Below are positions 845 to 57,800 of a stretch of DNA of 64,000 bases, piece by piece. The stretch comes from Naegleria gruberi (lineage: Eukaryota). The stretch lies in the NCBI GenBank assembly GCA_000004985.1, contig GG738926.1. One strand, written 5' to 3'. The stretch's first letter is position 1, and every line of letters begins with the position of its first letter. The translations under genes and the position numbers were made by a program. Below the pieces are notes generated by a model. That model was not told where the DNA came from. It saw only the letters and a program-made list of their open reading frames with translations, and searched no databases.

Positions 845-3160
845 TTACTTGCTCTTGAACTTGTTATCAACCTTCAAAGTCACAGATCTGTTAAACACTA
901 ATTGATCATTAGTTGTGTCTTGATCAACAACAAAGAAGCCAACTCTTTCGAATTGGTACTTTTCATAGACGGCACGGTTCTTAGCATCTTGGAAATATGG
1001 GTCAACAAATGCGTTTGGCTTAATAATTTCAGAGTTTGGATTAATATAGTTCAACCATTCATCACCAACTTCATCCAAATCGTCACAAGTGAACAACTTT
1101 TCATAGAGTCTGACTTCAGCCTTCATTGGATCAACACCAGGAGCAGATTGAGACAACCAGTGAATATATGTCTTTGGCTTTTCCTTCTTGTCAAAATCGG
1201 CAGTACAATGCAATTCAACAATCTTACCATTTTCATCCTTAATAACCTTTTCACAATGAATGTTACATGGAGCATATCTCAAACCAACGCTCTTATTTGG
1301 AGCCAAACCATAGTAATCTTCAGAGTCAACTTCTCTAAAGTCAGAGCTTTCAATGTAGAGAACTCTGGAGAGTGGCAATTGACGAGATCCTCTTTCGGCA
1401 AGCTTAGGGTGATTCTTAGCTTCAACATGTTCAACCTTGTTAGCATCATAGTTAGTCAAAACAACCTTAAGTGGTTCCAAAACAGCAAAGACACGGTTAA
1501 CACGTTCATCGAGATCAGTACGGAGGGATTGTTCCAATCTTTCAATTGGAATCAAATTTTCAACACGAGTAACACCAATATCATCACAGAATGATTTGAT
1601 ACCTTCTGGTGTGTAACCTCTTCTTCTCAAACCAGCCAAAGTCAAAACTCTTGGATCGTCCCAAGAACGAATAATCTTTTCCTTAACCAACTTCAAAACC
1701 TTACGCTTGGAAAGCAAAGCAGTTGTAATATTCAATCTACTGAATTCATAAACGTGAGGTCTATATAATTTCAAAGTAGCCAATAACCAATAGTAAGAGT
1801 CACGTCTGTTTTCAAATTCCAATGTACACAAAGAGTGAGTAATATTTTCCAAAGAGTCAACAATACAGTGAGAGAAATCATAAGTTGGATAAATACACCA
1901 TTTGTTTCCTTGATGTGGGTGAGCAACATATTTGATACGATAAGCAACGAAATCTCTCATGTTGTAATTGTCACTGCTCATATCAATCTTGACTCTAAGA
2001 ACAGCAGCACCTTCATCGTAAATACCCATCTTCATTTGTTCGAATCTCTTCAAGTTTTCTTCTGGAGTAGTATTTCTGTACTTTGATTCAATCTTATTTT
2101 CTCTTTGATCGTGAATTTCCTTCTTTGATGAAAAGTCAACATAGGCCTTTCCTTCCTTAATTAATTGAACAGCAAAATCGTACATTTGATCCATGTAATC
2201 ACTAGTGTATGTAATCTTAAATGGCTTGAATCCCATCCATTCCATCATTTCTCTAATAGAATCAAAGTAAATCTTTTCTTCCTTTTCTGGATTTGTGTCA
2301 TCATAACGAAGATATGTGCAACCACCTTCTGACATGGCATAACCAAAAGACAAATTCATGGCCTTGGCGTGACCAATGTGAAGGAATCCGTTTGGTTCAG
2401 GTGGGAAACGTGTCATAATTTTACCACCAGTTTGGTTCTTATGTTGTTCCAATAATTCAGGTGGGTTGACAGCAGTTTCAAGGAAACGAGCATCAAAATT
2501 ATAAGTCTTCTTTTGTGGTTGAGTGGCAACCTTTTCTGTGGTAGTGGCAGTTTTAACAACAGCAACCTTTTCTACTTTCTTTGGTGCTTCTTCTACTGGA
2601 GTATCCTTCAGTTCTTCGGATAATGCTTGGAAGGCCTTTTCAACAACTTGTTTAATAATGTTACCATCGGCAAACTTCAATAATTTAATTTCGTTACGCA
2701 AAGTACCAACAAGTTTACCAACATTGGCTTTTCCAATGGTGTAATATGAAAGCTTGTTGCTTGAAATTTGTCCATTAACTAATTCAGTAACCTTTTCTTC
2801 ATTGACATCAGCACCAACACCACATTCAACTTCAAAATCTTGAATTGGGAGTGGTGTAGTACCAATCTTTTTAGCATACTTGATTGCTTCTTCGACTTGG
2901 ACACCAGTCTTGAGTTTACCTTGGGCAATATATTTAGCAATGATTAATCTATTATCAGCCAAATTATCTGGGATGGATTGGATCAACTTCAAGATGAGTG
3001 GACCACAAGAATAATTAAATTCACTAGACTTGTTTTCCAAAGGAATGTTGACTTCGGTGATGGTACGAAGGAATTTTGTTGTGAGGGCTTCATTCTTGGT
3101 AAGATTGAAAATATCCTTTTCATTCAAACCAACAGCCAACAAGATTGCGTCTCTCTCCAT
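845..3160 (-). CDS. glnS: Glutaminyl-tRNA synthetase (class I, eukaryotic type with N-terminal extension)
   Basis: A 771-aa ORF with a true ATG. It carries the HIGH motif (PEPNGFLHIGHAKA) and class-I catalytic core, a KMSKS-like LSKRK element, an anticodon-binding C-terminal domain and the ~200-aa N-terminal appended domain typical of eukaryotic GlnRS. Confidence 0.9.
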   Translation of the reverse strand: MERDAILLAVGLNEKDIFNLTKNEALTTKFLRTITEVNIPLENKSSEFNYSCGPLILKLIQSIPDNLADNRLIIAKYIAQGKLKTGVQVEEAIKYAKKIGTTPLPIQDFEVECGVGADVNEEKVTELVNGQISSNKLSYYTIGKANVGKLVGTLRNEIKLLKFADGNIIKQVVEKAFQALSEELKDTPVEEAPKKVEKVAVVKTATTTEKVATQPQKKTYNFDARFLETAVNPPELLEQHKNQTGGKIMTRFPPEPNGFLHIGHAKAMNLSFGYAMSEGGCTYLRYDDTNPEKEEKIYFDSIREMMEWMGFKPFKITYTSDYMDQMYDFAVQLIKEGKAYVDFSSKKEIHDQRENKIESKYRNTTPEENLKRFEQMKMGIYDEGAAVLRVKIDMSSDNYNMRDFVAYRIKYVAHPHQGNKWCIYPTYDFSHCIVDSLENITHSLCTLEFENRRDSYYWLLATLKLYRPHVYEFSRLNITTALLSKRKVLKLVKEKIIRSWDDPRVLTLAGLRRRGYTPEGIKSFCDDIGVTRVENLIPIERLEQSLRTDLDERVNRVFAVLEPLKVVLTNYDANKVEHVEAKNHPKLAERGSRQLPLSRVLYIESSDFREVDSEDYYGLAPNKSVGLRYAPCNIHCEKVIKDENGKIVELHCTADFDKKEKPKTYIHWLSQSAPGVDPMKAEVRLYEKLFTCDDLDEVGDEWLNYINPNSEIIKPNAFVDPYFQDAKNRAVYEKYQFERVGFFVVDQDTTNDQLVFNRSVTLKVDNKFKSK

Positions 3161-31599: not shown

Positions 31600-31613
31600 A
31601 ATATGTACACGAG

Positions 31614-33601
31614 TTAAACATTTGGTTGTGCTGTCTTGGCAGCATTATTCTTCTTAGCTTCACATTCTTTTTGATAATTAGTAACAAATTCTTGAACTCT
31701 CTTATCCTTCTTTCTCAATCTGTCCCAAATATCCATCATGTCTTGTTCGCAATGCTTTGCCAGTGCATTAAAAAAGTCCTTAGATAGAGGTTTAGTGACA
31801 TCATCAATAGTCTTTCCAATTTCTTCCTTATTGAATTTAGAAGGTAAGTTTAATTCCATAGGAGCATCAGACTTTAAATATTTGTTTTGAATATTCTTTG
31901 CCAATTTTCTTCTTGCCTTGACATTTGACTTTCTCTTGTACAATTGAATTTCCTTCCAAGCTCTTTAAAGGTTATTAAATCACAATGTTGTTATACTTAC
32001 AAAACACTTTCTGGACAGTATGATTGTTTGGCAAATGCCAACAAGATATCAAACATTTTCTTGTCCCTGAGCATCTTGATTAGTGCTCCCTTTTCCACAG
32101 TAGTTACTCCTTCCTCTTCTTCTACGTCCTTATTCCTCTTTACTGATCCCTTTTGTTTGGAGTAGACAGAGATTAGCTCTGCAATAGCTCTGACAGCTGG
32201 AATGAAACCAGTCACAATATTATCAGTCACAACAGCGAAGAACAAGATGAGCCCGTAAGCAAAATATGCATCCGTTAATGAGCCAACCACTGGTATAAGC
32301 CCAGCTATAATATAGGCAACAATCCAGAGAACCCATAATATCAAAACTGTAAAGGTCTCAACTCTAATACGCCAAGTGTCATTGTCTTCACGAAGAGTGA
32401 AAATCAAAAGGACTAGAATAGCTACCAAGTATGACAAACCTTGAACAGCAACAGTGATCAAAGTACCTGTTCCTGCACCACAACCATGATTGAATACGAA
32501 AAAGTCTGCAGTTACAGTGAATTTAGTGGAATCAGGATAAGAAGAGAGATAGAAGGTTTCTACTAAACCACAAATCAACCAAATGAGCAAATGCAAAAAA
32601 CTAAAGACAATTGTGACTGCTAAATAGAACCACCACTTTAAAACGTGTTGAATTCTAACAATTCTAGTTTCCAATGCAATGTATTTTGCTAATTCTTCTT
32701 GAGTTACAGTTGAAATGGCATTTGCCAATACACTTTTGTGAAGACCACTTGCTTTTGACATTTGTCTTCTGATACCTTGGTTTGGATCGAGAGAGTTTAG
32801 TTTTTCATCAGTAGTGACTCCTCCAGATGAAGTGGAAAGTGAATCATCCATTTCCATAGTGACAGAACCAGCATCTGAATCAGTGTCATCTGAATCCTCA
32901 TCGTAAGAGTCTGTATCCGTCACTGTTGTAGTATTGAAGAGGACTATTCCAGAACCAGTTCCTGGACTATCCTCAACATCTGAAACGTTTCCAGAAGATG
33001 TAGATGGTTGTACTTGTACGGTTTCTCTCTTTCTTCTCGGTTCTCCTCCCTTCTTAATGAGACTCTCTTCGAGACGAAACAATTCAACACGAGTCTTATT
33101 CAAACGAGACATCCAAATCAATCTCCACAATCTCAAAAGTGTTGGGAAGAAGACAACCGGAGCAGCAAAGAAATAGGTCAACATGTAGATGAAACAAGGG
33201 AATATTTTACGACCAACAGTCAAACGTAAGATGAAAATAAAAGCAAATAGACCTGTCAAAAGCAATGCACCAATCATGACAGCAACTTCTCTATATTTTA
33301 CAAGAGGAACTTTCCTAGTTTTGATAACTGAAGCAATTGTGAAAACCACAAATATTAGATAAGTGCCCAGAAGAATACCACTGACAGCTTGACTGCTAAC
33401 AGTCTCTGGACAGAGGCCATATTCTTCCTTTTCTGTTCCATTCTTCAAGAGACTGGGATCACAGACACTTGTAGTATTTGTAGATGTGGAATTTGTGGTT
33501 GTTTGTAGAACACTGAGAATGGATATTAACCCTGTTGATATCCAAGAAGAGGGACCCTCGTTCATTTTGGAGTGATGGTTGTTATTATGGTTTAATCCCA
33601 A
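31614..33601 (-). CDS. Seven-transmembrane receptor with C-terminal RGS domain (7TM-RGS), 2 exons
   Basis: Model: complement join(32001..33565, 31614..31962). The true ATG is at 33565 (MNEGPSSW...); the track start is a TTG. There are seven predicted TM helices with a ~170-aa acidic/S/T-rich loop between TM3 and TM4. The RGS box spans the ~38-nt intron (GTAAGT donor at 32000-31995, AG acceptor at 31964-63): ...KKMFDILLAFAKQSYCPESVL|AWKEIQLYK...RRKLAKNIQNKYLKSDAPMELNLPSKFNKEEIGK...FFNALAKHCEQDMMDIWDRLRKKDKRVQEF. Confidence 0.8.
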
Positions 33602-34950: not shown

Positions 34951-37900
34951 ATGAGATCTCACAACATCATTGGCTGTTTTTTATTTACCCTGCTATTTAT
35001 TATGATTTTTGGCAGCTGGGTTTCCAATGCCGCTGTATCAATAGATGTAAATTATAATATCTACCAATTAGTTGCCTCTTTCTACAATATCAGATCTATG
35101 GACTTTGACAAGCAAAATAATATCCTGTACATTGTCGGCGCTAATAACAAGGTTGTAAAATATACTGCTGCAAGTGGTACGACTGAATATGATGCATCAG
35201 CATATACTCCTTATGGCATTGCTGTCAATTCTACAAGTGCCTATTTTTCAGTATTTAATCCAGCTTCATTAAAAAAGTGGGACGGAGCTGTAGGAACCTC
35301 ATCTTATCATCTCATTATGCCAGGTTCAGTTTCTACATCAGGTTCAGATGATATAGTAGCAAATTCTTCATTGACGACGAAGCCGAAATATATGAGAATA
35401 TCATCAACCACAGGTGATTTATACTTTACGGAAGCATGCAGAGTGAGAAAAATATCAAATGGTATGGTTCGTGCTGTTGCAGGTAAAACTACTTGTACTT
35501 CCTCATCAGGAGATGGTGGTTCAGCCACAAATGCAGAATTTAATGGAGCTCCATATTATATTGCCTTAACACCAGAAGATGATTTACTTGTCATGGATAA
35601 TGTAAATAGACTGAGAAAAGTTAGCAATGGCACAATTACTACAATTCTATCACCTACCTCTTGTAGAGGTCTTGCTGTCGGTACTAATGGAGATATTTAC
35701 ATAATAGGTAAGTAATTGGATAAGAGCAAATTTCAATAATTATTATGTAGATGATCAAGTAGTTAGTAAGGTGAGGAATGGAGTTTCAACCACTATTGCT
35801 GGTGGTGGTGGAACTTCAACGAGCTCTTTTTCCTCAAATGATCCTCTATCATATGGTTTTGCTTATGCAGAACTCAGTGATATTGTCGTTGGTGTGAATA
35901 ATAGTCTTTATTTTGTTGCTGATCAGAAGTTATTCAAATTAGAACCTTATTGCAGTTCAGGTTATGTACTTTCACCTGATTATACTATTTGCTATCCTGT
36001 CTGCTTTAATACAGTAGCAACATCTCAATCAGTGTGCTCTAATTCAAATGGTACCTGTATTGCTCCTGATACATGTTCTTGCAAAGCTGGTTATACTGGT
36101 TCCAAATGTGAAATTCCAATCTGTTACGGATTACTCTCCAATGACACAGCCAATGCTTGCAGTGGAAGAGGATCTTGTGTAGCAAAGGACACTTGTGTCT
36201 GTCAACCAAATTATTCTGGACTTGCTTGTAATATCACTACCTGTTCTTCAATTTCTAGTACCAGTGCAAATGTTTGCTCTAGAAGAGGGTCATGCACTGC
36301 CTATAATACTTGTACTTGTTCGCAAAATTATTATTATGGAACAGATTGTCAAAATACTTACTGTTATTCAATTTCCTCTACTGATTCAAGTGTTTGTAGT
36401 GGACATGGTAACTGCTTAGATTATAATCAATGTTCTTGTTCTTCAAAATGGTATGGTTCCTATTGTAACATCACAGAATGCTTTTCTATGTTAAGTAACT
36501 CTTCAAATGTTTGTTCAGGTGCTGGTACTTGTAATTTGCCAAATAATTGTACTTGTAATGCTGGATATAATGGAACTAATTGTGAAAACTTTGATTGTTT
36601 CGGAGTGTCTGTGAATAGTGGCCAAAGTGCATGTCAACACAATGGAACATGCTCAGGACCTGGAGCTTGCTCTTGCTTGCCAACATACTATGGAAAAATT
36701 TGTGAAATATCAACTTGTTATGGTATATTGAGCAATTACTCTAGTGTTTGTTCAAGTCATGGAACCTGCACAATGTTGAATACTTGTGAATGCAGCCAAA
36801 ATTATTATGGAAATAATTGCAGCTTCCCTATTTGTTATGGAATAACATATGATGATACTAGTGTATGTTCTGCTCGCGGAAAATGTATTGGCGGAAATAA
36901 TTGTAAATGTAATAATGGTTATACTGGAGCTAATTGCGAGCTCAATATTTGTTATGGTGTTAACTCTGACCAATCTAATGTTTGCTCTTCACGTGGTTCA
37001 TGTGGTGCACCTGATTCATGTCAATGTACTAATGGATACAGAGGTCCAAATTGTCAATATGTTGAAATGATAATGGACGCCAAAGCGGCAGTTTTATCTA
37101 CAGCAGTCTCCAACGTAATAGCTTCCTATGCTCCTAAAACAGCAACATCTTGCAGTTCTATTTTCTCCTCAAAGGATTTGACATATCTTGGCTCCTCGGA
37201 AACTGTCAGATGTATTTGGAATCAAAACACATTCAAAATTTATTTAGGCTACAGACACTTTGTTTATGATAATATGACCATGGATATCTTTGGTAATGGC
37301 ATGAATTTCACTTTGCAAGTAGTCTTGACAAAGGCCATACAAGATAGTGCCAGTGCTTCTATTTCCATATTACCTCAACTATCTAAGGTACCAAAAACAG
37401 CAATTATTGTTAAATCTTACTCACCATTTGTTTTCCAAGCTTTTAGAAATACTTCAATTGCTTGGTCTAACTCAGGTAATACCGATATCTCTACATTGCT
37501 TTCAGGAATGAGCAACAAACCAGTGGTAGTCATTCCTTCTACAGAAATAACCTCAGCTTCAACCAAATTTTCCTTAAATGTAACAGGTAAAAACTGGATT
37601 GGTGCCACTTCAACTAGTGCAAAAGTTGATATTGATTATACTGCAGCCTATCCATACTTTGAATTAGTATCGGAGACAAGTGGTAGTCAATTTACTTGTT
37701 CTGGTTTTGACTGTATTATTGAAGTTAATCCGTATGTTACACCAACTCCTACAGTCTATTTTGATGTACCATTCAATGCTCTCAATAGTGGTTCTGGAGA
37801 TTATGTAATTAGATTTTTGAATAGAGTTGGCTCTACCATTCTAAACAGTTACTATGAGGGTTCAATGAAACTTCAAACAACCTCTAGTGCCTTAACCTAT

Positions 37901-40900
37901 ACAATGTCCTACACTGGCTTTGAAGAAGTGCCAATCGTGTTGCTCAATACTGAAAAACAATACTATGGAAACAAACTCACAATTACTGCTTCTTTTATTG
38001 ACCCGATGGTTGAATATTTGTTGAGTAGTAATAGTATTAGTGTTTCATGGTTTTGTTTTAGAGGTACTTCAAAGACTGGTCCTTTTTCTGCCTATGACTG
38101 TACTTCTCAAACTAAGGAATTAATCATTGGAGAATCTAACCTTATTGAAGGATACCATCAATTCCAATTCACAGCCACTTTGACAAATTCAAAAATCACA
38201 TCCGTTACCAAAACAGCAATTGTGCAAGTTGTTAAAACAAATATTCCAGATATTCTCTTTGACTCTGTTCCTCCAGTTTATCCATCATCAAGAAACTTGG
38301 TATTGAATGCAGTTATTTCTTCTTCCACGCAAATCGGTAGCGTTGTGTGGCAAGTAACCAAGGGTAATTTACTCAATGAGAATATTCTTAGTCAATCAAG
38401 TACTCTCTCATTGGATGGATACAATATCAAATCAACTTTGGTTATTGACAAGTCTTATTTATTACAAGGTGATTCTTATACATTCACTGTTACTGCTTCC
38501 AATGGTATTGGCTCTTCAACTGCAGCTGTTTCAACTGTTATTGATGTAGCTCCAAGAATTGCTTGTCAAGCCTATGACGCAGCCATAACCAATTCCGTTA
38601 TCTATGCTTACTCTAGTGATGTGGTAATTGATTGTGCTTCACTCTCTGACTACTCAATTGCTTCCTATCATGTCGATATATATGCCAACTCAACCAGGGT
38701 AATGACAGTATCTAAAACAATGAAAAAGACTTTTATTACAAAGGTACCATACGGTCCAAATGGAAATATCAGACTGGATGTACGAGCTGTAAACAAGATT
38801 GGATCTATTTCATCTGCTTCTATTGATCTCAAGGTTTCTCTTAAAAATACTGATAACACCCTCGCTGGAAGAATTGGATTTGCTAGTTCTGAATATGAAA
38901 GCAACAAAGCAAGCTTTACAAGATTAGAAAGTGTTGTTACTATGCATTCTTTATTGTTACTTATTATTCAACAAAATTCTGTTAGTGAATTTGCCAGTAT
39001 AGACTCTACAGCCAAAACTACTCTCACCACCTTGATAACCAATATGTTAACTACTTTGAGTGGTCTGAAGAGTATTAGTTACAACGCAGATGACAAATTA
39101 GCTCCTGTTTTTATTCCATTTGCAAATGATGCTTACAGGTTACTTGCTGTTATTTCTCCAACTACAGTGGCTTCCAATGCTGATCTACTCACTTGGGTTA
39201 AATTCTTCATAACGTCATTCAATGATTACAAGACATATTATAGATCTACAGTTGTACCTACTATTTACGACTCTAAACACTTGACAGAAATTGATTCCTT
39301 GATAGGTATTGGCGCAAAGTATATTAGTGATAGTAGTTTCAGTCCATTATATAAGGAAACAGCTATTATTTCCAAATTGATTACTGACGTTACCAATTCC
39401 ACAACAACGACAACCTCCACCATCGTGGATTCCAGTGGTACGGAGACAAGATTTGATATTGTTGACAGAATTCAACAACTGAATGCCAAGACAATTACAT
39501 TCGCTAATTATCCTTCAATTTCTATTTCCTTCCCATCAGATTTCTACTCACAACTCGGTGTTGAAAATTCAGGATCAGGAGTAACCCTCACTTCTGCTGT
39601 TTCAACCTCTAAATATTCCCAACTAGTAAGCCCTTCTGTTGATATTTCTCTTTCTACCTCTTCAGACGCTGTTATTTCTGTGAGTGGATTGCAAGGAAAT
39701 TTGATTCAAATCAATTTTGGCACCTTATCACAACCTAAAGCTAACTTTACCAGTTACAATTATACTTGCAGATTCTTGAATACTACCTCATCACAATGGA
39801 GTCAGTCAGGAGTGTCAAGCTCTATTTCCATTTTGTCAGATGATGGCCAAACTGTCACCTTTTCTCTTTCATGTTTAACTTCTCACTTGACTTCTTTCGG
39901 AGTTGTTTCTGCTATCATCCCTCCAACATCACAATCTAAAACAGTAACAACAGATAATACTGGTGTTGTTGTTGGTGCTGTTTTGGGTACACTCTTGCCA
40001 TTGATTTTGATAGCTGTTATTGTTGTCGTAGTGGTGATAATTGTAATTATTTTATACAAGAGAAAGAAATCTCTCGACTCATCACAAGTTCAAAATGTTG
40101 AATTGGTCAATAAGAATGTTTCAAGTGTTCATATTAGTGACTTCCCTTCAGAAGAAAGCACTCACTTTAAGCAATTGGTTAGTGTATCTTCTGGATCTAC
40201 TAATTCTGATCCACTTGCAAGATATGCTGATATGGTAAAGATTGGACAAGGCGCATTCGGAAGTGTGTTCAAAGGTGTTGATACAAAGCAAGCAGGAAAG
40301 TTGAAGGCCATCAAGGTTATTAGATTTAATTCTGTTGGTGAATTGAACAATATGCTCAAAGAAGGAACTATGCTCATGAACATTGATCACCCACATATTC
40401 TAAAAGTCAACGAGTTTATTATTGACAAAGATAACATTCTCTGTATTGACACAGATTTCTGCGAAGATGGTGATTTGACCAAGCTTACTCTTTCTGCAGA
40501 GCCAATCCCAGAACCAATCATCAAACAAGTAATTTATCAAATGTGTTCTGCTTTGGCCTTTATTCACAACAAGCTCAAGATTATTCACAGAGATGTTAAA
40601 CCACACAACATTTTCTTGAAAGAATTGACAGATTTTTCAGTTCAAACAGTTTTGGCTGACTTTGGTCTTGCTAAACAAGATCAAAACAACAGCATGAATT
40701 CATATGCTGGTACACCACTTTGTAAGTTTTTATTTTTAATTATTTAATTAACAACCAATTAAATAGACATGAGTCCAGAACTTGCCCTTGGAGGTAAATA
40801 TAACTATAATACTGACACTTGGTCTCTTGGTGTTGTAGCCTATCAATTAATGACTAAAGATATCACAACTGCTCTAAGTCATTTGTGCTTAACAGGAGAT

Positions 40901-41125
40901 TCAGAAGATACTAAGAAGAGAATTAGAGCCAAATTGGATGAGACTGGTCAATACTCTGAAGCATTGAAAGAGATTGTCATTTCCATGTTAGAAAAAGATG
41001 CTGCATCACGTCCATTTCCTCAAGAATTAGTCGATCGTCCTTTCTTCCAAGATTATAGACCAAAGAAGAAGAAGAATAACATTTTCAGATCCAGTTCTGC
41101 AGGAGAAGATGATATGTATATGTAA
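34951..41125 (+). CDS. Receptor Ser/Thr protein kinase with NHL-repeat + ~12 EGF-like (tenascin/laminin-type) repeat ectodomain, 3 exons (~2028 aa)
   Basis: Model: join(34951..35707, 35751..40721, 40767..41125), with introns GTAAGT...AG of ~43 and ~45 nt. It has a signal peptide and NHL-like repeats. EGF-like units of the form C..G.C...d.C.C..gY.G..C span ~36000-37060. A long S/T-rich stalk precedes the TM helix VVVGAVLGTLLPLILIAVIVVVVVIIVIILY. The kinase domain shows GQGAFGSVFKG / AIK / HRDVKPHNIF / DFGLAK, and GTPLY|MSPE...DTWSLGV is completed across intron 2. Confidence 0.85.
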
Positions 41126-41225: not shown

Positions 41226-42650
41226 CTACTCCTCATCAGAGCTAGGCTCATCAGAGAAATACACTTTATCAAATAATTTTAATCCAGCAGGTGTTGAACT
41301 AATCTCTCCAGATATGGAATTCCTTTTAAAATATGTTTCATGATAGGAAGCAATTTTTCTCAATTTAGGAAAAACATCATTAAACAATAAATTCACTTCT
41401 GTTAAATTAGCAACTTCCAAAGTTGTAAAAATCAATTTTTCAATACCGTTAAATTTACCCCTTATATCCCAATCAAAATTATCAATGTTAATAATTTTAA
41501 GTTGATTGGAAAATACAGAATGTGAAATAAGGTTATACGAATCGTCTGAACCACAATTATCAATCATTAAGGTGGTTAGATTAATCATATTTGGACTGTC
41601 AACAATCATTTTTACACCCTCACTCCCAATATCATTGTTACTGATATCCAAATAAGTCAACTTGGTAATATACTTGCTTTCACATAAATATTTACATGCT
41701 TGTTTAGTACACAAGCCATGATAAATGATAAGACTCGATAAATTACTCATATTTGGGCTATTGGCGATGTCAATTATTCCATCTCCAATTCTACACCCTC
41801 CTAAATTCAAATAGGTCAATTGATTTAAATATTTGCTATTAGCAATTTCCTTACATCCTTCTCTCTCAAAACTATTTGAACATAAATTGAGACTAGTGAG
41901 ATTCTTAAAATGTTCATTCCTTGTTATTGGTTCCATATTTTTTATGTAACTTATTTCTAAACATAAGCTTGTCAATTGAGTTAATTGACCAAAATCCAAA
42001 GCTTCATCAACAAAAATATCATTAATTTCCAAATTTGTTAAATTAGTGAAATATTTTCCATAAGCAAGAGCTTTTAAAATTGACTTATTCGCATTGAAAA
42101 GTGATTCCAATTTCAATATCCGTAAATTTTTACAATTTTCACTATTTGCCAAATATTCAATGCCCTCCCTAATTTCTGATTCTCCAAAATCTAAACGTGT
42201 TAAATTTTTCAAATAAGGACTGGTTGCTATTAATTTACAACATTCATCATCAATTTCATTGGCAAACAATATCAGACTCTTCAAATTGCGCATCTCTTCA
42301 CACTGACACAACTCTCTAATACACTCCAATCCAACAAAATCATCGAGACGATAACAATTACTTGCATCCAATTGAGTCAAATTGGAAAGTAATTTGTTTT
42401 TGAACAATAAATTGTTTAATGTACTTCCTCGGGTGAGTTTAATGGAGAGAGGTAGTTTGCAGCACTGATCAAACCATTGTTTGGAAACGAGTGAACAAAT
42501 TGGAATAATTTCCTTCCTATTATGGAGAAATGGTAAAATATTCAGTAGAATATCATCGTATAATGTGGGGGAGGAGTATTCGTGCATTTTCTTACATTTT
42601 GATGGTGGTTGAACACCAGTACCACTTTCAGCACTAAATATTCTTTTCAT
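41226..42650 (-). CDS. F-box / leucine-rich-repeat (RNI-like) protein
   Basis: 474 aa. An N-terminal F-box-like segment (LYDDILLNILPFLHNRKEIIPICSLVSKQWFD) is followed by at least 12 cysteine-containing LRRs (L..L.L..C..I.D.g...L). Confidence 0.8.
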   Translation of the reverse strand: MKRIFSAESGTGVQPPSKCKKMHEYSSPTLYDDILLNILPFLHNRKEIIPICSLVSKQWFDQCCKLPLSIKLTRGSTLNNLLFKNKLLSNLTQLDASNCYRLDDFVGLECIRELCQCEEMRNLKSLILFANEIDDECCKLIATSPYLKNLTRLDFGESEIREGIEYLANSENCKNLRILKLESLFNANKSILKALAYGKYFTNLTNLEINDIFVDEALDFGQLTQLTSLCLEISYIKNMEPITRNEHFKNLTSLNLCSNSFEREGCKEIANSKYLNQLTYLNLGGCRIGDGIIDIANSPNMSNLSSLIIYHGLCTKQACKYLCESKYITKLTYLDISNNDIGSEGVKMIVDSPNMINLTTLMIDNCGSDDSYNLISHSVFSNQLKIINIDNFDWDIRGKFNGIEKLIFTTLEVANLTEVNLLFNDVFPKLRKIASYHETYFKRNSISGEISSTPAGLKLFDKVYFSDEPSSDEE

Positions 42651-54887: not shown

Positions 54888-57800
54888 ATGAAACTATTAA
54901 ACTTGTTTATTTTTCTAATATTATTTCCCACACTAATTTATTCATCATCCGCAGAGGATACGAGAAATTATTCCAGCTCATCCATTAATAATTCGAATAA
55001 TTTTCCTTCATCCTCTTTGAAAACTAATGTTGTTAACTATTCGAAAGGAATTAATTTACAAATAATTTATTACATTAATTCTGATGATGTCAAATATCAG
55101 AATACAACTTGTCAAGACGAAAGTCATCCATGTTCAGATATGAACCAAGTGATCTTGGCAGCAAATACGAAACTATTCGAAATATTTCATGAAAATGATC
55201 AAACTAAATTAGATTCTTTTACAATGATTGTCATGATTGATTCGAAATTGGAATGTAACAAACTGCTCTTTGATTTTTCAAATTATACGAAACGATTCGA
55301 AATGAGGTGGAAAGGATACGAAAATGGTTTATTCTCTGCTTGTCTAAATAGTTTAGATGAAAATTCCATTTTAGATGCTTTCACTGTTGAGAATGGAAAG
55401 ATTTCAGGCGAATTGAATAATAGATTAGGTATCAAGAATTTGGAAATTCGAAACTGTCACGATGGTGGAATGATTTACTTTTATACTAAAATAGAAAATT
55501 TGCTGATTGCTGACAGTTTCTTTCATGAAGATACTGAAATAACTGAGATTACAAATGTACGAGTGGAAAATACGCAATTGGATGATTTTGAAATTGTTTC
55601 GAATGGAGCAAGTGTTGAAATTTCAAATTCTAAAATTCAAGGAATTGTTGATTTGCAGAATTTTAAATCATTTTCTATTCGAAACTCAATTTGGAAAAAT
55701 AACCGAGTTCATGAGGATTATTCATCAACATTTAATTTAGGACAAGATGTTTCATTTGATAATGTAACAACTAATGCTAAAATTGTGTTTATTTCAATCA
55801 AGTCAATCAAGATGAATGGGCTAATTGTACACAATTATGGAAACGGATATTTCTTGTATCAAATGATACGAGTTTCTCATTTCTATCTAAGCAACAGTTC
55901 GTTTGTGGGAAATTTCGTGCTCAACAACTATTTACTCTCCTTGCAAATAGTTGAATCTATACAAATTGAAAATTGTACAGTTTCTAATAATGTTGGAGGT
56001 TTCATCATGGTAACAGATGCTACTTTGATAATGGGACAGGTGAATATACGAATTAGTAAGAGTGTATTTCAATCCAACGAGATGCTGTCAGATATTGCTC
56101 TAATTGACATTGTGGATCAAACAAGAGAGATGTATTTTATCACAGTTGACCATTGTAAATTTTTGGAAAATACAGGAGAATCCACTTTACACATTGATGG
56201 AGGACTTGCCCAAATTTCCAATTCAGACTTCTACTTTAATATTGCAAACGAACATGGTACTGCATACTTGAATTGCTATGTTACAATTTCAAACTCTAAA
56301 TTCATCGCTAATCAAGCCAAGTTAGGAGGAGCCATTTACATTGGTCCTGCTGGAAATATTGATGCATCTCAAACAATTGATTTTACTTGTGATAATAATT
56401 GGGCAACCTACGCTGGAGGATGCATTTATTCAGAAAATTTGGATTTTTCAAAATTGAAACGCATGAATGGAACTAATATTGCTAAATATTATGGAAATGA
56501 TGTGGCCACACCTATTGTGAGTCTGGATGCTACATTTGATGAGGTAGATTCTAATGGAAATATTGAGGTTTACCCAGGTCAAGCATTCCAAATTAATTTT
56601 TTCCCAAGAGACAAGTTCAATCAGAGCACCTCTTATTTATTGAATCAATATTTGTTTATCAATTCAGAAAAAGGTCATTTTACAATCTCTCAGAATTTTT
56701 TAGATGGAATCCATTCTATTCCAGTAGTTTTGCAAATATTTCCAATTGACGACTACAACCCATCATTGCCACCACTTGTAATATTGATTTCTTCAAAAAT
56801 TGAAATCAAAATTCCTGTAAATATTCTCCCATGTCCAGATAGTTCTTTCCTGAAATTATCTCAAAATGGACATTACTGTGAACAAATTCCATTAGCAGCG
56901 ATTCTGTCATCTGTAATTTTGGGAATTATTTTGATAACCATTATATTGGCAGCATTAATAGTGATAGCTAGGAAATTATTGAAATTGAGAAAACAGGAAC
57001 GTGCTGAAAAGAAAATGGAGCTATTGTTCAAAGATAAGGAATTTATATTCGAAACAGAACAAGCACCTCTATTACTTTCTAATACCATCAACAGTAGTGA
57101 TTCAGGTGAAAGTAGATCAATAATTGGAAACAGGCAACAATACATCATTCCAATTTCTGAAATTAATATTTTGAAAAGAATAGGAGAAGGTGGAATGGGT
57201 GTCGTATATCACGCGAAGTGGAATCGAACTGATGTTGCCATCAAACAATTGAAAACAGATTCCAATGATGAAGAATTCGAAAATGAAGCAATTTTAATGA
57301 GCTCACTTCGACATCCATGTATTGTGAGCTGTTTTGGAGTTTCTCTGACAACCAATGGAAAATATATGATTGTAGAATATTTGGAAAATGGAAGTCTAGA
57401 AAAGGCAATTTATAATTCAAAGATGGGAAGAGCAATTTTGAGATTTGAAACCAAGTTGAAAATATTAACTGATGTTGCCAAAGGATTAGTTTATTTACAT
57501 TCAATCAAACCTCATAGAATTATTCATAGGTATGTTTACTACTTTTATTGGAATAGATATTAATTATGGAATAGAGATTTGAAACCAGGAAATTTATTAC
57601 TCGATAAGAATATGAATGCAAAAGTTGGGGATTTTGGATTGAGCAAAATTGTTTCGAATAATTCTGCAACAATGACAGCAAATGTAGGAACTTTACTTTA
57701 CATGGTAAGTCTAGATAATTTCACAAATTGAATTAAATTGTTATCAATTTAGGCGCCAGTAAGTAATTTCGAAATTTAATTTATTAAAATTTCGAATATT

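What the first reader, a model, noticed from the sequence alone, without database searches (positions are those of the whole stretch)
34951..41125. Giant receptor Ser/Thr kinase combining NHL repeats, ~12 tandem EGF-like modules and an S/T-rich stalk
Ectodomain, single TM helix and cytoplasmic kinase with this module combination are not a described family to my knowledge. The kinase core (HRDVKPHN, GTPLYMSPE) is Ser/Thr-type rather than TKL or Tyr-type, and its activation-loop/P+1 region is split by a 45-nt intron. The EGF array has near-perfect 31-32-aa periodicity, so the 36000-37060 region looks like a DNA tandem repeat, but it is coding.
Basis: partly seen in the sequence, partly recalled or inferred. 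Interest (0 to 1): 0.55.

Follow-up and report, generated by a model that had tools for sequence, protein, structure and literature searches.

The report
GAIN-domain receptor kinase of Naegleria
This is a real 2028-residue Naegleria gruberi surface receptor kinase, already in public annotation.

Summary
The gene is real. My three-exon model (introns of 43 and 45 nt) gives a 2028-aa protein identical to the public Naegleria gruberi model XP_002669463.1 / D2W2I6, named "basal body protein NBP-2".

Confirmed:
- signal peptide
- NHL propeller
- EGF array
- one TM helix
- an intact non-TKL Ser/Thr kinase, split by the 45-nt intron at GTPL|YMSPE

Corrected:
- There are 9 EGF modules of 39-40 aa, not about 12 of 31-32 aa.
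- The EGF region is not a DNA tandem repeat.
- The "S/T-rich stalk" is a conserved, folded region of about 950 aa. It is a beta-rich, REJ-like part followed by a GAIN domain with a GPS motif (C1627-x3-H-L|T-S-F) 24 residues before the membrane.

At least six paralogs in N. gruberi and N. fowleri share the architecture.

I found no paper describing a GAIN-1TM-kinase receptor.

Most likely function: an adhesion or mechanosensory receptor kinase whose ectodomain is probably autocleaved at the GPS. Cleavage and signalling are inferred.

Verdict: a new variant of a known kind, moderate interest.

The parts
34951..41125 (+). Whole gene: 3 exons (34951-35707, 35751-40721, 40767-41125 including the stop). 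It encodes 2028 aa and equals N. gruberi XP_002669463.1 / D2W2I6.
   Evidence: Searches give the gene model. One search is an exact-sequence look-up. One search shows the window is N. gruberi (GlnRS ORF 100% identical).
34951..35031 (+). Signal peptide, aa 1-27 (MRSHNIIGCFLFTLLFIMIFGSWVSNA).
   Evidence: Hydropathy peak at aa 5-25. The cleavage position is read from the sequence and is an inference.
35032..35953 (+). NHL-type beta-propeller, aa 28-320. It has six 'hhYhhD..hh+K' repeats, at about aa 56, 95, 153, 209, 245 and 302, and is interrupted by intron 1.
   Evidence: Pfam TEN_NHL scores 31.6 bits, above the 27.1 cut-off, when the N-terminus is scanned alone. BLASTP to the NHL region of paralog P0003 gives E 2e-16 and runs across the exon junction. 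The count of six blades is read from the sequence.
35708..35750 (+). Intron 1, 43 nt, GTAAGT...TAG, phase 1.
   Evidence: Removing it restores the frame, and the junction ...DIYII|DDQVVSKVRNG aligns with an NHL repeat of P0003.
36002..37054 (+). Nine tandem teneurin/tenascin-type EGF modules, aa 337-687, each C-x10/11-C-x5-C-x5-C-x-C-x8/9-C, with a 39-40 aa period.
   Evidence: Pfam EGF_Teneurin 106.8 bits, EGF_2 103.6 bits and EGF_TEN 97.1 bits. Cysteine map. Module alignment gives mean identity of 42% for protein and 52% for DNA. TRF finds no array.
37055..38845 (+). Conserved beta-rich region, aa 688-1284: a chain of Ig/PKD-like sandwiches, distantly REJ-like.
38846..39913 (+). GAIN domain, aa 1285-1640: helical subdomain A (about 1290-1467) and beta-sandwich subdomain B (about 1473-1639).
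39767..39898 (+). GPS motif, aa 1592-1635: C1592...W1602...C1627-LTS-H1631-L1632|T1633-S-F1635. The predicted scissile bond lies between window bases 39889 and 39890.
   Evidence: Pfam GPS scores 16.3 bits, E 0.015, covering profile positions 2-44 of 45; this is below the 22.5 cut-off. The best PDB hit of the family profile is the ADGRG1 GAIN domain, aligned at its GPS, at E 0.18, which is not significant. hhalign to the canonical 4-Cys GPS of N. gruberi 7TM-RGS paralogs gives probability 96.3%, E 1.7e-9. HL|[TS]xF is invariant in 9 of 9 family members.
39962..40057 (+). Single transmembrane helix, aa about 1657-1688, followed by KRKK.
   Evidence: It is the only internal hydropathy peak, with a maximum of 3.83.
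40058..40222 (+). Cytoplasmic juxtamembrane segment, aa 1689-1743, with the conserved motifs SDFPS...(K/Q)(P/L)L.S(V/I)S...(D/N)P(L/M)(A/S)RY.
   Evidence: Alignment of family members.
40223..41047 (+). Ser/Thr protein kinase domain, aa 1744-2003, interrupted by intron 2. Key residues are G1751xGxxG, K1774, E1790, H1865-R-D1867-x-K1869-xx-N1872, D1889-F-G and S1912-P-E.
   Evidence: Pfam Pkinase 169.7 bits. The nearest solved structures are ULK3 at 4e-31, STK24 at 4e-30 and NEK2 at 4e-29. Motifs are read.
40722..40766 (+). Intron 2, 45 nt, GTAAGT...TAG, phase 1, inside the P+1/APE segment (GTPL|YMSPE).
   Evidence: The spliced junction matches N. fowleri P0118 'GTPLFMSPELGLGGKY' and N. gruberi P0007. 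The read-through variant is not in the protein collection.
41048..41125 (+). C-terminal tail, aa 2004-2028 (basic KKKK then acidic end), plus the stop codon.

Best explanation
The locus encodes a type I membrane receptor Ser/Thr kinase of Naegleria gruberi (XP_002669463.1).

Architecture, outside to inside (shown by tool results):
- signal peptide
- six-bladed NHL propeller
- nine teneurin-type EGF modules
- a beta-rich, REJ-like region of about 600 aa
- a GAIN domain whose GPS motif keeps the H-L|T triad, 24 residues before the single TM helix
- a conserved juxtamembrane segment
- a catalytically intact, non-TKL Ser/Thr kinase

Proposed working (inferred):
1. The NHL-EGF head binds an extracellular partner or surface.
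2. The GAIN domain autocleaves between L1632 and T1633 during biosynthesis. This leaves an ectodomain fragment of about 1600 aa held non-covalently on a stub consisting of a 24-residue extracellular stalk, the TM helix and the kinase.
3. Ligand binding or mechanical pull on the large fragment changes the state or oligomerisation of the stub.
4. The kinase is then switched on by trans-autophosphorylation of its activation loop, which carries S1900, S1903, Y1904 and T1907.

It therefore works like an adhesion-GPCR or polycystin-1 ectodomain coupled to a kinase output instead of a 7TM or 11TM output. It belongs to a Naegleria-specific toolbox in which the same NHL-EGF-GAIN ectodomain is also joined to short tails and to 7TM-RGS bodies.
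For: - Gene model: identical to the public model. Homologues are colinear over both splice junctions.
- Domains: Pfam kinase and EGF hits; TEN_NHL above its cut-off.
- GPS by sequence: Pfam GPS scores 16.3 bits on the window protein and 23.2 bits, above the cut-off, on paralog P0042. The same family profile matches P0042 at E 4e-26.
- GPS by profile: the family profile retrieves Pfam-GPS proteins from 1.8 billion representatives, for example P0148 (REJ+GPS) at E 9e-10. hhalign to canonical Naegleria GPS gives 96.3%.
- The HL|[TS]xF motif is invariant in 9 of 9 members.
- UniProt names the N. fowleri paralog A0A6A5C3H3 'GPS domain-containing protein', and that paralog carries Pkinase.
- REJ-like region: hhalign gives 89.6%, E 1.9e-6.
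- Single TM helix.
- All catalytic kinase motifs are present.
Against: - Pfam GPS and Pfam REJ do not reach their curated cut-offs on this protein itself.
- Only two of the four canonical GPS cysteines are present.
- The structure model rests on a 7-sequence alignment.
- Many GAIN domains that keep HL|T are still not cleaved (established knowledge of adhesion GPCRs).
- With a single TM helix there is no 7TM pocket for a tethered agonist, so the coupling step to the kinase is speculative.
- There are no expression, localisation or ligand data.
- The public name 'basal body protein' hints at a different cellular context, and I could not trace the basis of that name.
Confidence: 0.6

Rival explanations
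1. It is a conventional receptor kinase with an uncleaved GAIN domain. In this reading the GAIN/REJ-like region is only a rigid structural spacer, and signalling is by ligand-induced dimerisation, as in other single-pass receptor kinases.
For: The second GPS disulfide is lost: only C1592 and C1627 remain. Pfam GPS is below its cut-off. A single TM helix offers no tethered-agonist pocket. From established knowledge, several adhesion GPCRs with GAIN domains are not cleaved.
Against: H-L-[T/S] at P2, P1 and P1' is invariant in all nine 1TM family members. The 7TM-RGS paralogs of the same genome have replaced P1 Leu by Thr or Ala. That pattern suggests selection on the cleavage triad specifically in this family.
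Confidence: 0.25
2. It is a flagellar or basal-body-associated membrane protein, as the public name 'basal body protein NBP-2' implies. It would act at the flagellar base or flagellar membrane during the amoeba-to-flagellate switch, rather than as a general surface adhesion receptor. This is compatible with the architecture above and changes only where and when it works.
For: The name is given in NCBI and UniProt. From established knowledge, the REJ+GAIN protein polycystin-1 is ciliary and suREJ proteins are on sperm.
Against: I could not find any paper that gives the evidence for the name. [quoted passage not shown] A glycosylated ectodomain of about 1650 aa with a signal peptide fits a membrane surface, not the centriole itself.
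Confidence: 0.1
3. The model is a mis-joined gene: the ectodomain and the kinase are separate genes, or exon 3 is not part of the transcript.
For: None found. I have no transcript data. Two paralog models in the public set, P0002 and P0005, do end inside the kinase domain.
Against: The TM helix and the kinase N-lobe lie in the same 4971-nt exon 2. Retaining either intron introduces a stop codon. The spliced sequence aligns without a break to N. fowleri and N. gruberi paralogs. The independent public model is identical. The truncated paralog models end in translated GTAAGT or GTATGT, which is unspliced intron.
Confidence: 0.03

Closest known systems
Adhesion GPCRs (latrophilin/ADGRL, CD97/ADGRE5, GPR56/ADGRG1, CELSR, BAI)
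   Same: Both have a large modular adhesive ectodomain ending in a GAIN domain, with helical subdomain A and sandwich subdomain B. The GPS HL|T motif sits about 20-25 residues before the first TM helix. These are the best structural matches.
   Different: This protein has one TM helix rather than a class-B 7TM, so no G-protein coupling and no tethered-agonist pocket. The output is a Ser/Thr kinase. Only one of the two GPS disulfides is kept. The organism is a discoban protist, far outside Holozoa.
Polycystin-1 / PKDREJ / sea-urchin REJ proteins
   Same: Both place a REJ-type beta-rich region directly before a GAIN/GPS module next to the membrane. Other Naegleria paralogs carry bona fide Pfam REJ domains.
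   Different: There is no PLAT domain, no 11-TM body and no channel partner. The REJ similarity here is only a distant profile-profile match, and Pfam REJ is not reached.
Teneurins
   Same: Both combine teneurin-type EGF modules with an NHL propeller; the best Pfam models are EGF_Teneurin, EGF_TEN and TEN_NHL.
   Different: Teneurins are type II proteins with the order EGF then NHL, plus a YD shell and a toxin-like domain. Here the order is NHL then EGF, the topology is type I, and no YD repeats were detected.
Other single-pass receptor Ser/Thr kinases (plant RLK/Pelle, Entamoeba TMKs, TGF-beta receptors)
   Same: All are type I proteins with an ectodomain, one TM helix and a cytoplasmic Ser/Thr kinase, presumably activated by oligomerisation.
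   Different: Those kinases are TKL-group. This one is nearest to ULK, STE20 and NEK-like kinases. None of those families is known to me to carry a GAIN domain.
Naegleria paralogs: N. gruberi P0002, P0003/D2VGC0, P0005, P0007/D2VE44; N. fowleri P0118/A0A6A5C4P6, P0127/A0A6A5C3H3
   Same: They have the same full architecture, NHL-EGF-REJ-like-GAIN-TM-kinase, and are colinear over about 80% of the length at 24-33% identity.
   Different: They differ in the number of NHL repeats and EGF modules. P0003 has lost HRD and the Gly loop, so it is a probable pseudokinase. P0002 and P0005 are truncated in public annotation.

Membership tests
Eukaryotic protein kinase, Ser/Thr type | Pfam Pkinase above the gathering score over the full domain | tested here: met
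   169.7 bits against a cut-off of 31.7, covering profile positions 1-263 of 263 at aa 1744-2003.
Eukaryotic protein kinase, Ser/Thr type | Catalytic residues present: Gly loop, beta3 Lys, alphaC Glu, HRDxKxxN, DFG and APE-like motif | tested here: met
   GQGAFG (1751-1756), K1774, E1790, HRDVKPHN (1865-1872), DFG (1889-1891) and SPE (1912-1914), read.
TKL or Tyr kinase groups | Closest relatives are TKL or TK kinases, with PK_Tyr_Ser-Thr scoring at least as high as Pkinase | tested here: not met
   PK_Tyr_Ser-Thr scores 105.8 against 169.7 for Pkinase. The 60 listed solved relatives are ULK, STE20, NEK, CDPK and CDK. By contrast, the Naegleria NHL-EGF kinases P0027 and P0024 score almost equally on the two models.
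GAIN domain | Two-subdomain fold: helical subdomain A plus twisted beta-sandwich subdomain B | tested here: met
GAIN domain | GPS motif with the H-L|T/S triad in the last strands | tested here: met
   H1631-L1632|T1633, invariant in 9 of 9 family members. It aligns to CxCxHL|T of ADGRG1 and to Naegleria canonical GPS motifs.
GAIN domain | Pfam GPS (PF01825) above the gathering score | tested here: not met
   16.3 bits against a cut-off of 22.5 on the window protein. The cut-off is met by paralogs P0042 (23.2 bits) and P0051 (26.6 bits).
GAIN domain | Four conserved GPS cysteines forming two disulfides | tested here: not met
   Only C1592 and C1627 (the P6 position) are present. The second and fourth positions are V/L/I and T/S/N. 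From my recollection of the latrophilin structure, this corresponds to loss of both partners of one disulfide.
GAIN domain | Position immediately N-terminal to the first TM helix | tested here: met
   T1633 lies 24 residues before the helix, which starts at about 1657.
GAIN domain | Autoproteolysis at the GPS | not testable with these tools
   This needs protein biochemistry.
Adhesion GPCR | Seven-transmembrane (class B2) domain after the GAIN domain | tested here: not met
   There is one hydrophobic helix only, and no 7tm Pfam hit.
Polycystin-1 family | REJ domain (Pfam PF02010) | tested here: inconclusive
   Pfam REJ does not hit at E up to 10. hhalign to Pfam-REJ-positive Naegleria segments gives probability 89.6%, E 1.9e-6. 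The model is low-confidence and all-beta.
Polycystin-1 family | PLAT domain and a multi-pass (11 TM) body | tested here: not met
   There is a single TM helix and no PLAT or PKD_channel hit.
NHL-repeat beta-propeller | Pfam NHL or TEN_NHL above the gathering score | tested here: met
   TEN_NHL scores 31.6 bits against a cut-off of 27.1 on aa 28-338 scanned alone. The NHL repeat model is weak at 13.4 bits. Homology to the NHL region of P0003 has E 2e-16.
EGF-like (teneurin/tenascin type) | Six-Cys modules, with Pfam EGF_2 or EGF_Teneurin above the gathering score | tested here: met
   Nine modules. EGF_Teneurin scores 106.8 bits and EGF_2 scores 103.6 bits.
Teneurin | Type II topology, YD-repeat shell and the order EGF then NHL | tested here: not met
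   The protein has an N-terminal signal peptide, the order NHL then EGF, and no YD or Tox-GHH hits.
Basal body protein (public name NBP-2) | Localisation to, or co-purification with, basal bodies | not testable with these tools
   Only the name is available, and no supporting paper was found.

The most novel reading that the evidence does not exclude
GAIN autoproteolysis is used here as a force- or ligand-operated switch for a protein kinase. Shedding or displacement of the 1600-aa NHL-EGF-REJ fragment from the cleaved stub would activate the kinase, possibly at the flagellar or basal-body membrane. If so, the GAIN/GPS switch is an ancient, output-agnostic eukaryotic module that predates its coupling to 7TM receptors in Holozoa.
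Probability: 0.2. Interest if true: 0.75.

Novelty: new variant of a known kind. Interest (0 to 1): 0.5.

Why it matters
- **Current view.** In the literature I could search, GAIN/GPS domains are treated as the hallmark of adhesion GPCRs and polycystin-1-like proteins. Their elaborate ectodomains are described as a holozoan feature (PMC12716839; PMC13197933).
- **What this adds.** A family of GAIN-bearing single-pass Ser/Thr kinases in Naegleria shows the module combined with a quite different signalling output in a distant eukaryotic lineage.
- **What it makes testable.** It offers a system for asking what GAIN cleavage does when no 7TM tethered-agonist pocket exists.
- **Annotation.** The "basal body protein NBP-2" entry should be re-examined, and two paralog models that are truncated by unspliced introns should be corrected.
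- **Applied angle.** N. fowleri, the pathogenic species, has orthologous surface kinases that could be looked at as surface antigens or drug targets. This last point is speculative.

Tried and rejected
- **DNA tandem repeat in 36000-37060: rejected.** TRF reports no array, and the modules are 52% identical at DNA level.
- **S/T-rich mucin-like stalk: rejected.** S+T content is no higher than in the rest of the ectodomain, and the region is conserved and folded.
- **A heterolobosean other than N. gruberi: rejected.** I suspected this first, because the first homology search gave no identical hit. The GlnRS ORF is 100% identical to N. gruberi, and the exact-sequence look-up found the protein. 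Its 90% cluster is represented by a 237-aa fragment, which hid it.
- **Profile search of the word-indexed protein database with the mid-region alignment:** it returned nothing and wasted one search.
- **The look-up of encoding contigs on three neighbouring ORFs and on the GlnRS:** none is on record.
- **afdb50 fold search:** the library was not available.
- **Fold search with the mid-region model:** it gave only generic Ig-like matches, because the model is poor.
- **Kinase group assignment: left unclassified.** ULK3, MST3 and NEK2 score within two orders of magnitude of each other.
- **Origin of the name NBP-2:** no paper found. The 2010 J Cell Sci and Eukaryot Cell papers are not held. The only text hit is an incidental BLAST label in a mussel transcriptome paper.

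Full report
**Gene model**

ORF listing and the sequence at the two gaps show three + strand exons: 34951-35707, 35751-40721 and 40767-41125. They are separated by introns of 43 nt and 45 nt, both GTAAGT...TAG. Retaining either intron gives a stop codon (…DIYIIGK* and …GTPLCKFLFLII*).

The window is Naegleria gruberi. The glutaminyl-tRNA synthetase ORF at 845-3160 (-) is 100% identical to the N. gruberi protein, which lies on a 174,974-bp contig. An exact-sequence look-up then showed that my 2028-aa conceptual protein is residue for residue the public model EFC36719.1 / XP_002669463.1 / UniProt D2W2I6. That model is named "basal body protein NBP-2" and "non-specific serine/threonine protein kinase". 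A variant that reads through intron 2 is not in the collection.

The first homology search missed this self-hit because its 90% cluster is represented by a 237-aa fragment. Both splice junctions are also supported by colinear alignment with paralogs:
- The NHL repeat …GDIYIID|DQVVSKVR… aligns with P0003.
- …YAGTPL|YMSPELALGGKY… aligns with N. fowleri …YAGTPLFMSPELGLGGKY….

- There is a signal peptide and exactly one internal TM helix, at about 1657-1688 and followed by KRKK.
- The kinase domain (aa 1744-2003) scores 169.7 bits on Pfam Pkinase against 105.8 on PK_Tyr_Ser-Thr.
- The kinase has the full catalytic set: GQGAFG, K1774, E1790, HRDVKPHN, DFG and SPE.
- Its nearest solved relatives are ULK3, STK24/MST3, NEK2, STK25 and NEK1, at E 4e-31 to 1e-27. 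No TKL or Tyr kinase appears among the 60 listed. It is therefore a Ser/Thr kinase that I cannot assign to one group.
- The 45-nt intron does split the P+1/APE segment.
- The N-terminal about 300 aa, scanned alone, pass the Pfam TEN_NHL cut-off (31.6 bits against 27.1). They align with the NHL region of a paralog at E 2e-16. Six "hhYhhD…K" repeats can be read in the sequence.

**What needs correcting**

- The cysteine map shows nine complete six-Cys EGF modules (aa 337-687, window 36002-37054) with a period of 39-40 aa, not about twelve of 31-32 aa.
- The modules average 42% protein identity and 52% DNA identity, and Tandem Repeats Finder reports no array there. It is an old, diverged module array.
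- There is no S/T-rich stalk. S+T is 24% in aa 688-1284 and 31% in 1285-1640, against 21-24% in the NHL and EGF parts.
- The whole of 688-1640 aligns colinearly with paralogs and has 76 invariant columns, including paired cysteines.

**What the "stalk" is**

About 25 residues before the TM helix the sequence reads C1627-L-T-S-H-L-T-S-F, which resembles the GPCR proteolysis site. I tested this in several independent ways.

1. A profile of the region from five family members, searched against all PDB sequences, gave as its best hit the GAIN domain of ADGRG1. The hit aligns exactly at the CxCxHL|T GPS, but at E 0.18 it is not significant.
2. Pfam GPS hits the isolated fragment at 16.3 bits (E 0.015, profile positions 2-44 of 45), which is below the 22.5 cut-off. 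It hits paralog P0042 at 23.2 bits, above the cut-off. P0042 matches the same family profile at E 4e-26, and UniProt names it a GAIN-B domain-containing protein.
3. An AlphaFold2 model of aa 1285-1665 from a 7-sequence alignment has mean pLDDT 77.9. It shows a helical subdomain followed by a beta-sandwich whose last strand follows the HL|T site.
4. Foldseek against the PDB ranks the latrophilin-1 GAIN/HormR structure first (E 1.5e-5, probability 1.0) and GPR56 second.
6. hhalign of the family alignment against the canonical four-Cys GPS regions of N. gruberi 7TM-RGS paralogs gives probability 96.3%, E 1.7e-9.

I conclude that aa 1285-1640 is a GAIN domain. It departs from the canon in two ways. 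It keeps only two of the four GPS cysteines, C1592 and the P6 cysteine C1627. Its subdomain A is larger than usual. The triad H-L|T/S followed by x-F is invariant in all nine single-pass family members examined.

The preceding 600 aa are less clear:
- Pfam gives only a weak PKD hit, E 0.52.
- The AF2 model is all-beta but poor, pLDDT 60.
- hhalign against segments of other Naegleria proteins that do pass Pfam REJ gives probability 89.6%, E 1.9e-6 over 319 columns.

I call this region REJ-like, with moderate confidence.

**The family**

An exhaustive profile search of 1.84 billion representatives found the full-length mid-region only in a handful of proteins. Together with the first search, the members are:
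- N. gruberi P0002, P0003/D2VGC0, P0005 and P0007/D2VE44
- N. fowleri P0118/A0A6A5C4P6 and P0127/A0A6A5C3H3

All carry EGF modules plus a kinase, and all but P0127 also gave NHL-type Pfam hits. UniProt names A0A6A5C3H3 "GPS domain-containing protein".

The GAIN-B part alone recurs in about 200 representatives. These include NHL-EGF-GAIN-1TM proteins with short tails (P0042, P0021) and REJ+GPS proteins such as P0148.

Naegleria also joins NHL-EGF(-REJ) ectodomains to TKL-like kinases (P0027, P0024). It joins NHL-EGF-GPS ectodomains to bodies of about seven helices with an RGS domain (P0051, P0099, P0011, P0016). The locus is thus one member of a lineage-specific modular receptor toolbox.

**How it most likely works**

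Shown: the topology, the domain order, an intact catalytic kinase, and an intact and conserved GPS triad.

Inferred:
- The NHL-EGF head mediates binding.
- The GAIN domain autocleaves at L1632|T1633 and holds the two fragments together.
- Ligand or force on the large fragment alters the stub and activates the kinase through oligomerisation and activation-loop phosphorylation.

The invariance of HL|T/S in the single-pass family argues that the triad is under selection here. In the 7TM-RGS paralogs of the same genome, P1 is Thr or Ala instead. The main rival is an uncleaved, purely structural GAIN domain with conventional dimerisation-driven signalling. The public name suggests a flagellar or basal-body context, which would be reminiscent of ciliary polycystin-1. 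I could not find the evidence behind the name, and a 2016 review says basal-body proteomics had not been reported.

**Comparison with known systems**

It works like an adhesion-GPCR or polycystin-1 ectodomain, but it is not a member of either family. The 7TM, and the 11TM plus PLAT, features were tested and are absent. It shares the teneurin EGF and NHL building blocks but has the opposite topology and domain order. It differs from plant RLKs, Entamoeba TMKs and TGF-beta receptors in kinase group and ectodomain.

The literature I could search describes GAIN only with adhesion GPCRs and polycystin-1, plus a 1TM isoform of Drosophila Cirl. It places the GAIN/7TM module and complex ectodomains in Holozoa. 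No paper combined Naegleria with GAIN, or described a GAIN-kinase receptor.

**Verdict**

The gene itself is already known and annotated. The architecture, GAIN-1TM-Ser/Thr kinase, appears undescribed and is a new variant of a known kind of receptor. All functional steps beyond the architecture remain inference. Interest is moderate (0.5).

Noticed in passing
Related proteins P0051, P0099, P0011, P0016 (N. gruberi and relatives), not in the window: These proteins have an NHL/EGF ectodomain, a canonical four-Cys GPS motif (C..W..GC..CxCxH[T/A]|TxF; Pfam GPS 26.6 bits in P0051), about 6-7 hydrophobic helices and an RGS domain. That is a GAIN/GPS-7TM-RGS architecture outside Holozoa, whereas a 2025 eLife paper places the GAIN/7TM module in stem holozoans. 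P1 is Thr or Ala rather than Leu, so they may not cleave.
   Followed up: partly
window about 31600-33601, minus strand: The upstream neighbour is a multi-TM ORF (534 aa). Its C-terminus continues over a short GTAAGT...AAAG intron into an RGS-like sequence (…AWKEIQLYK…DAPMELNLPSK…), so it is probably a 7TM-RGS gene. N. gruberi is reported to have 229 RGS proteins (PMC3971589).
   Followed up: partly
Paralogs P0002 and P0005 (public N. gruberi models): Both public models end 'GTP[IL]FM' followed by VS… or VC…, which is translated GTAAGT or GTATGT. They read into an unspliced intron 5 nt downstream of the window gene's intron 2, so they lack the kinase C-lobe. These look like annotation errors.
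   Followed up: partly
Paralog P0003 / D2VGC0 (N. gruberi): This paralog has HGN instead of HRD, TDFG, and no GxGxxG loop. It is a probable pseudokinase member of the same receptor family.
   Followed up: no
window 34951-41125 (database behaviour): The protein's 90% cluster in the large protein collection is represented by a 237-aa fragment. The full-length public protein was therefore invisible to the homology search and was found only by exact look-up.
   Followed up: yes
window 54888-57563, plus strand: An 891-aa ORF ends in the N-lobe of another protein kinase (PK_Tyr_Ser-Thr 77.6 bits, TKL-like). It presumably continues past an intron, so this is a second large kinase gene in the window.
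   Followed up: no
window 41226-42650, minus strand: The downstream neighbour is an intron-free 474-aa ORF that looks like a leucine-rich-repeat protein. This is read from the translation only; Pfam was not run on it. It converges on the 3' end of the kinase gene with a spacer of only about 100 nt.
   Followed up: no
window 40058-40222 (aa 1689-1743): The cytoplasmic juxtamembrane segment carries motifs conserved across all paralogs (SDFPS, PLxSVS, (D/N)PxSRY). It has no Pfam match and may be a regulatory or docking element.
   Followed up: no
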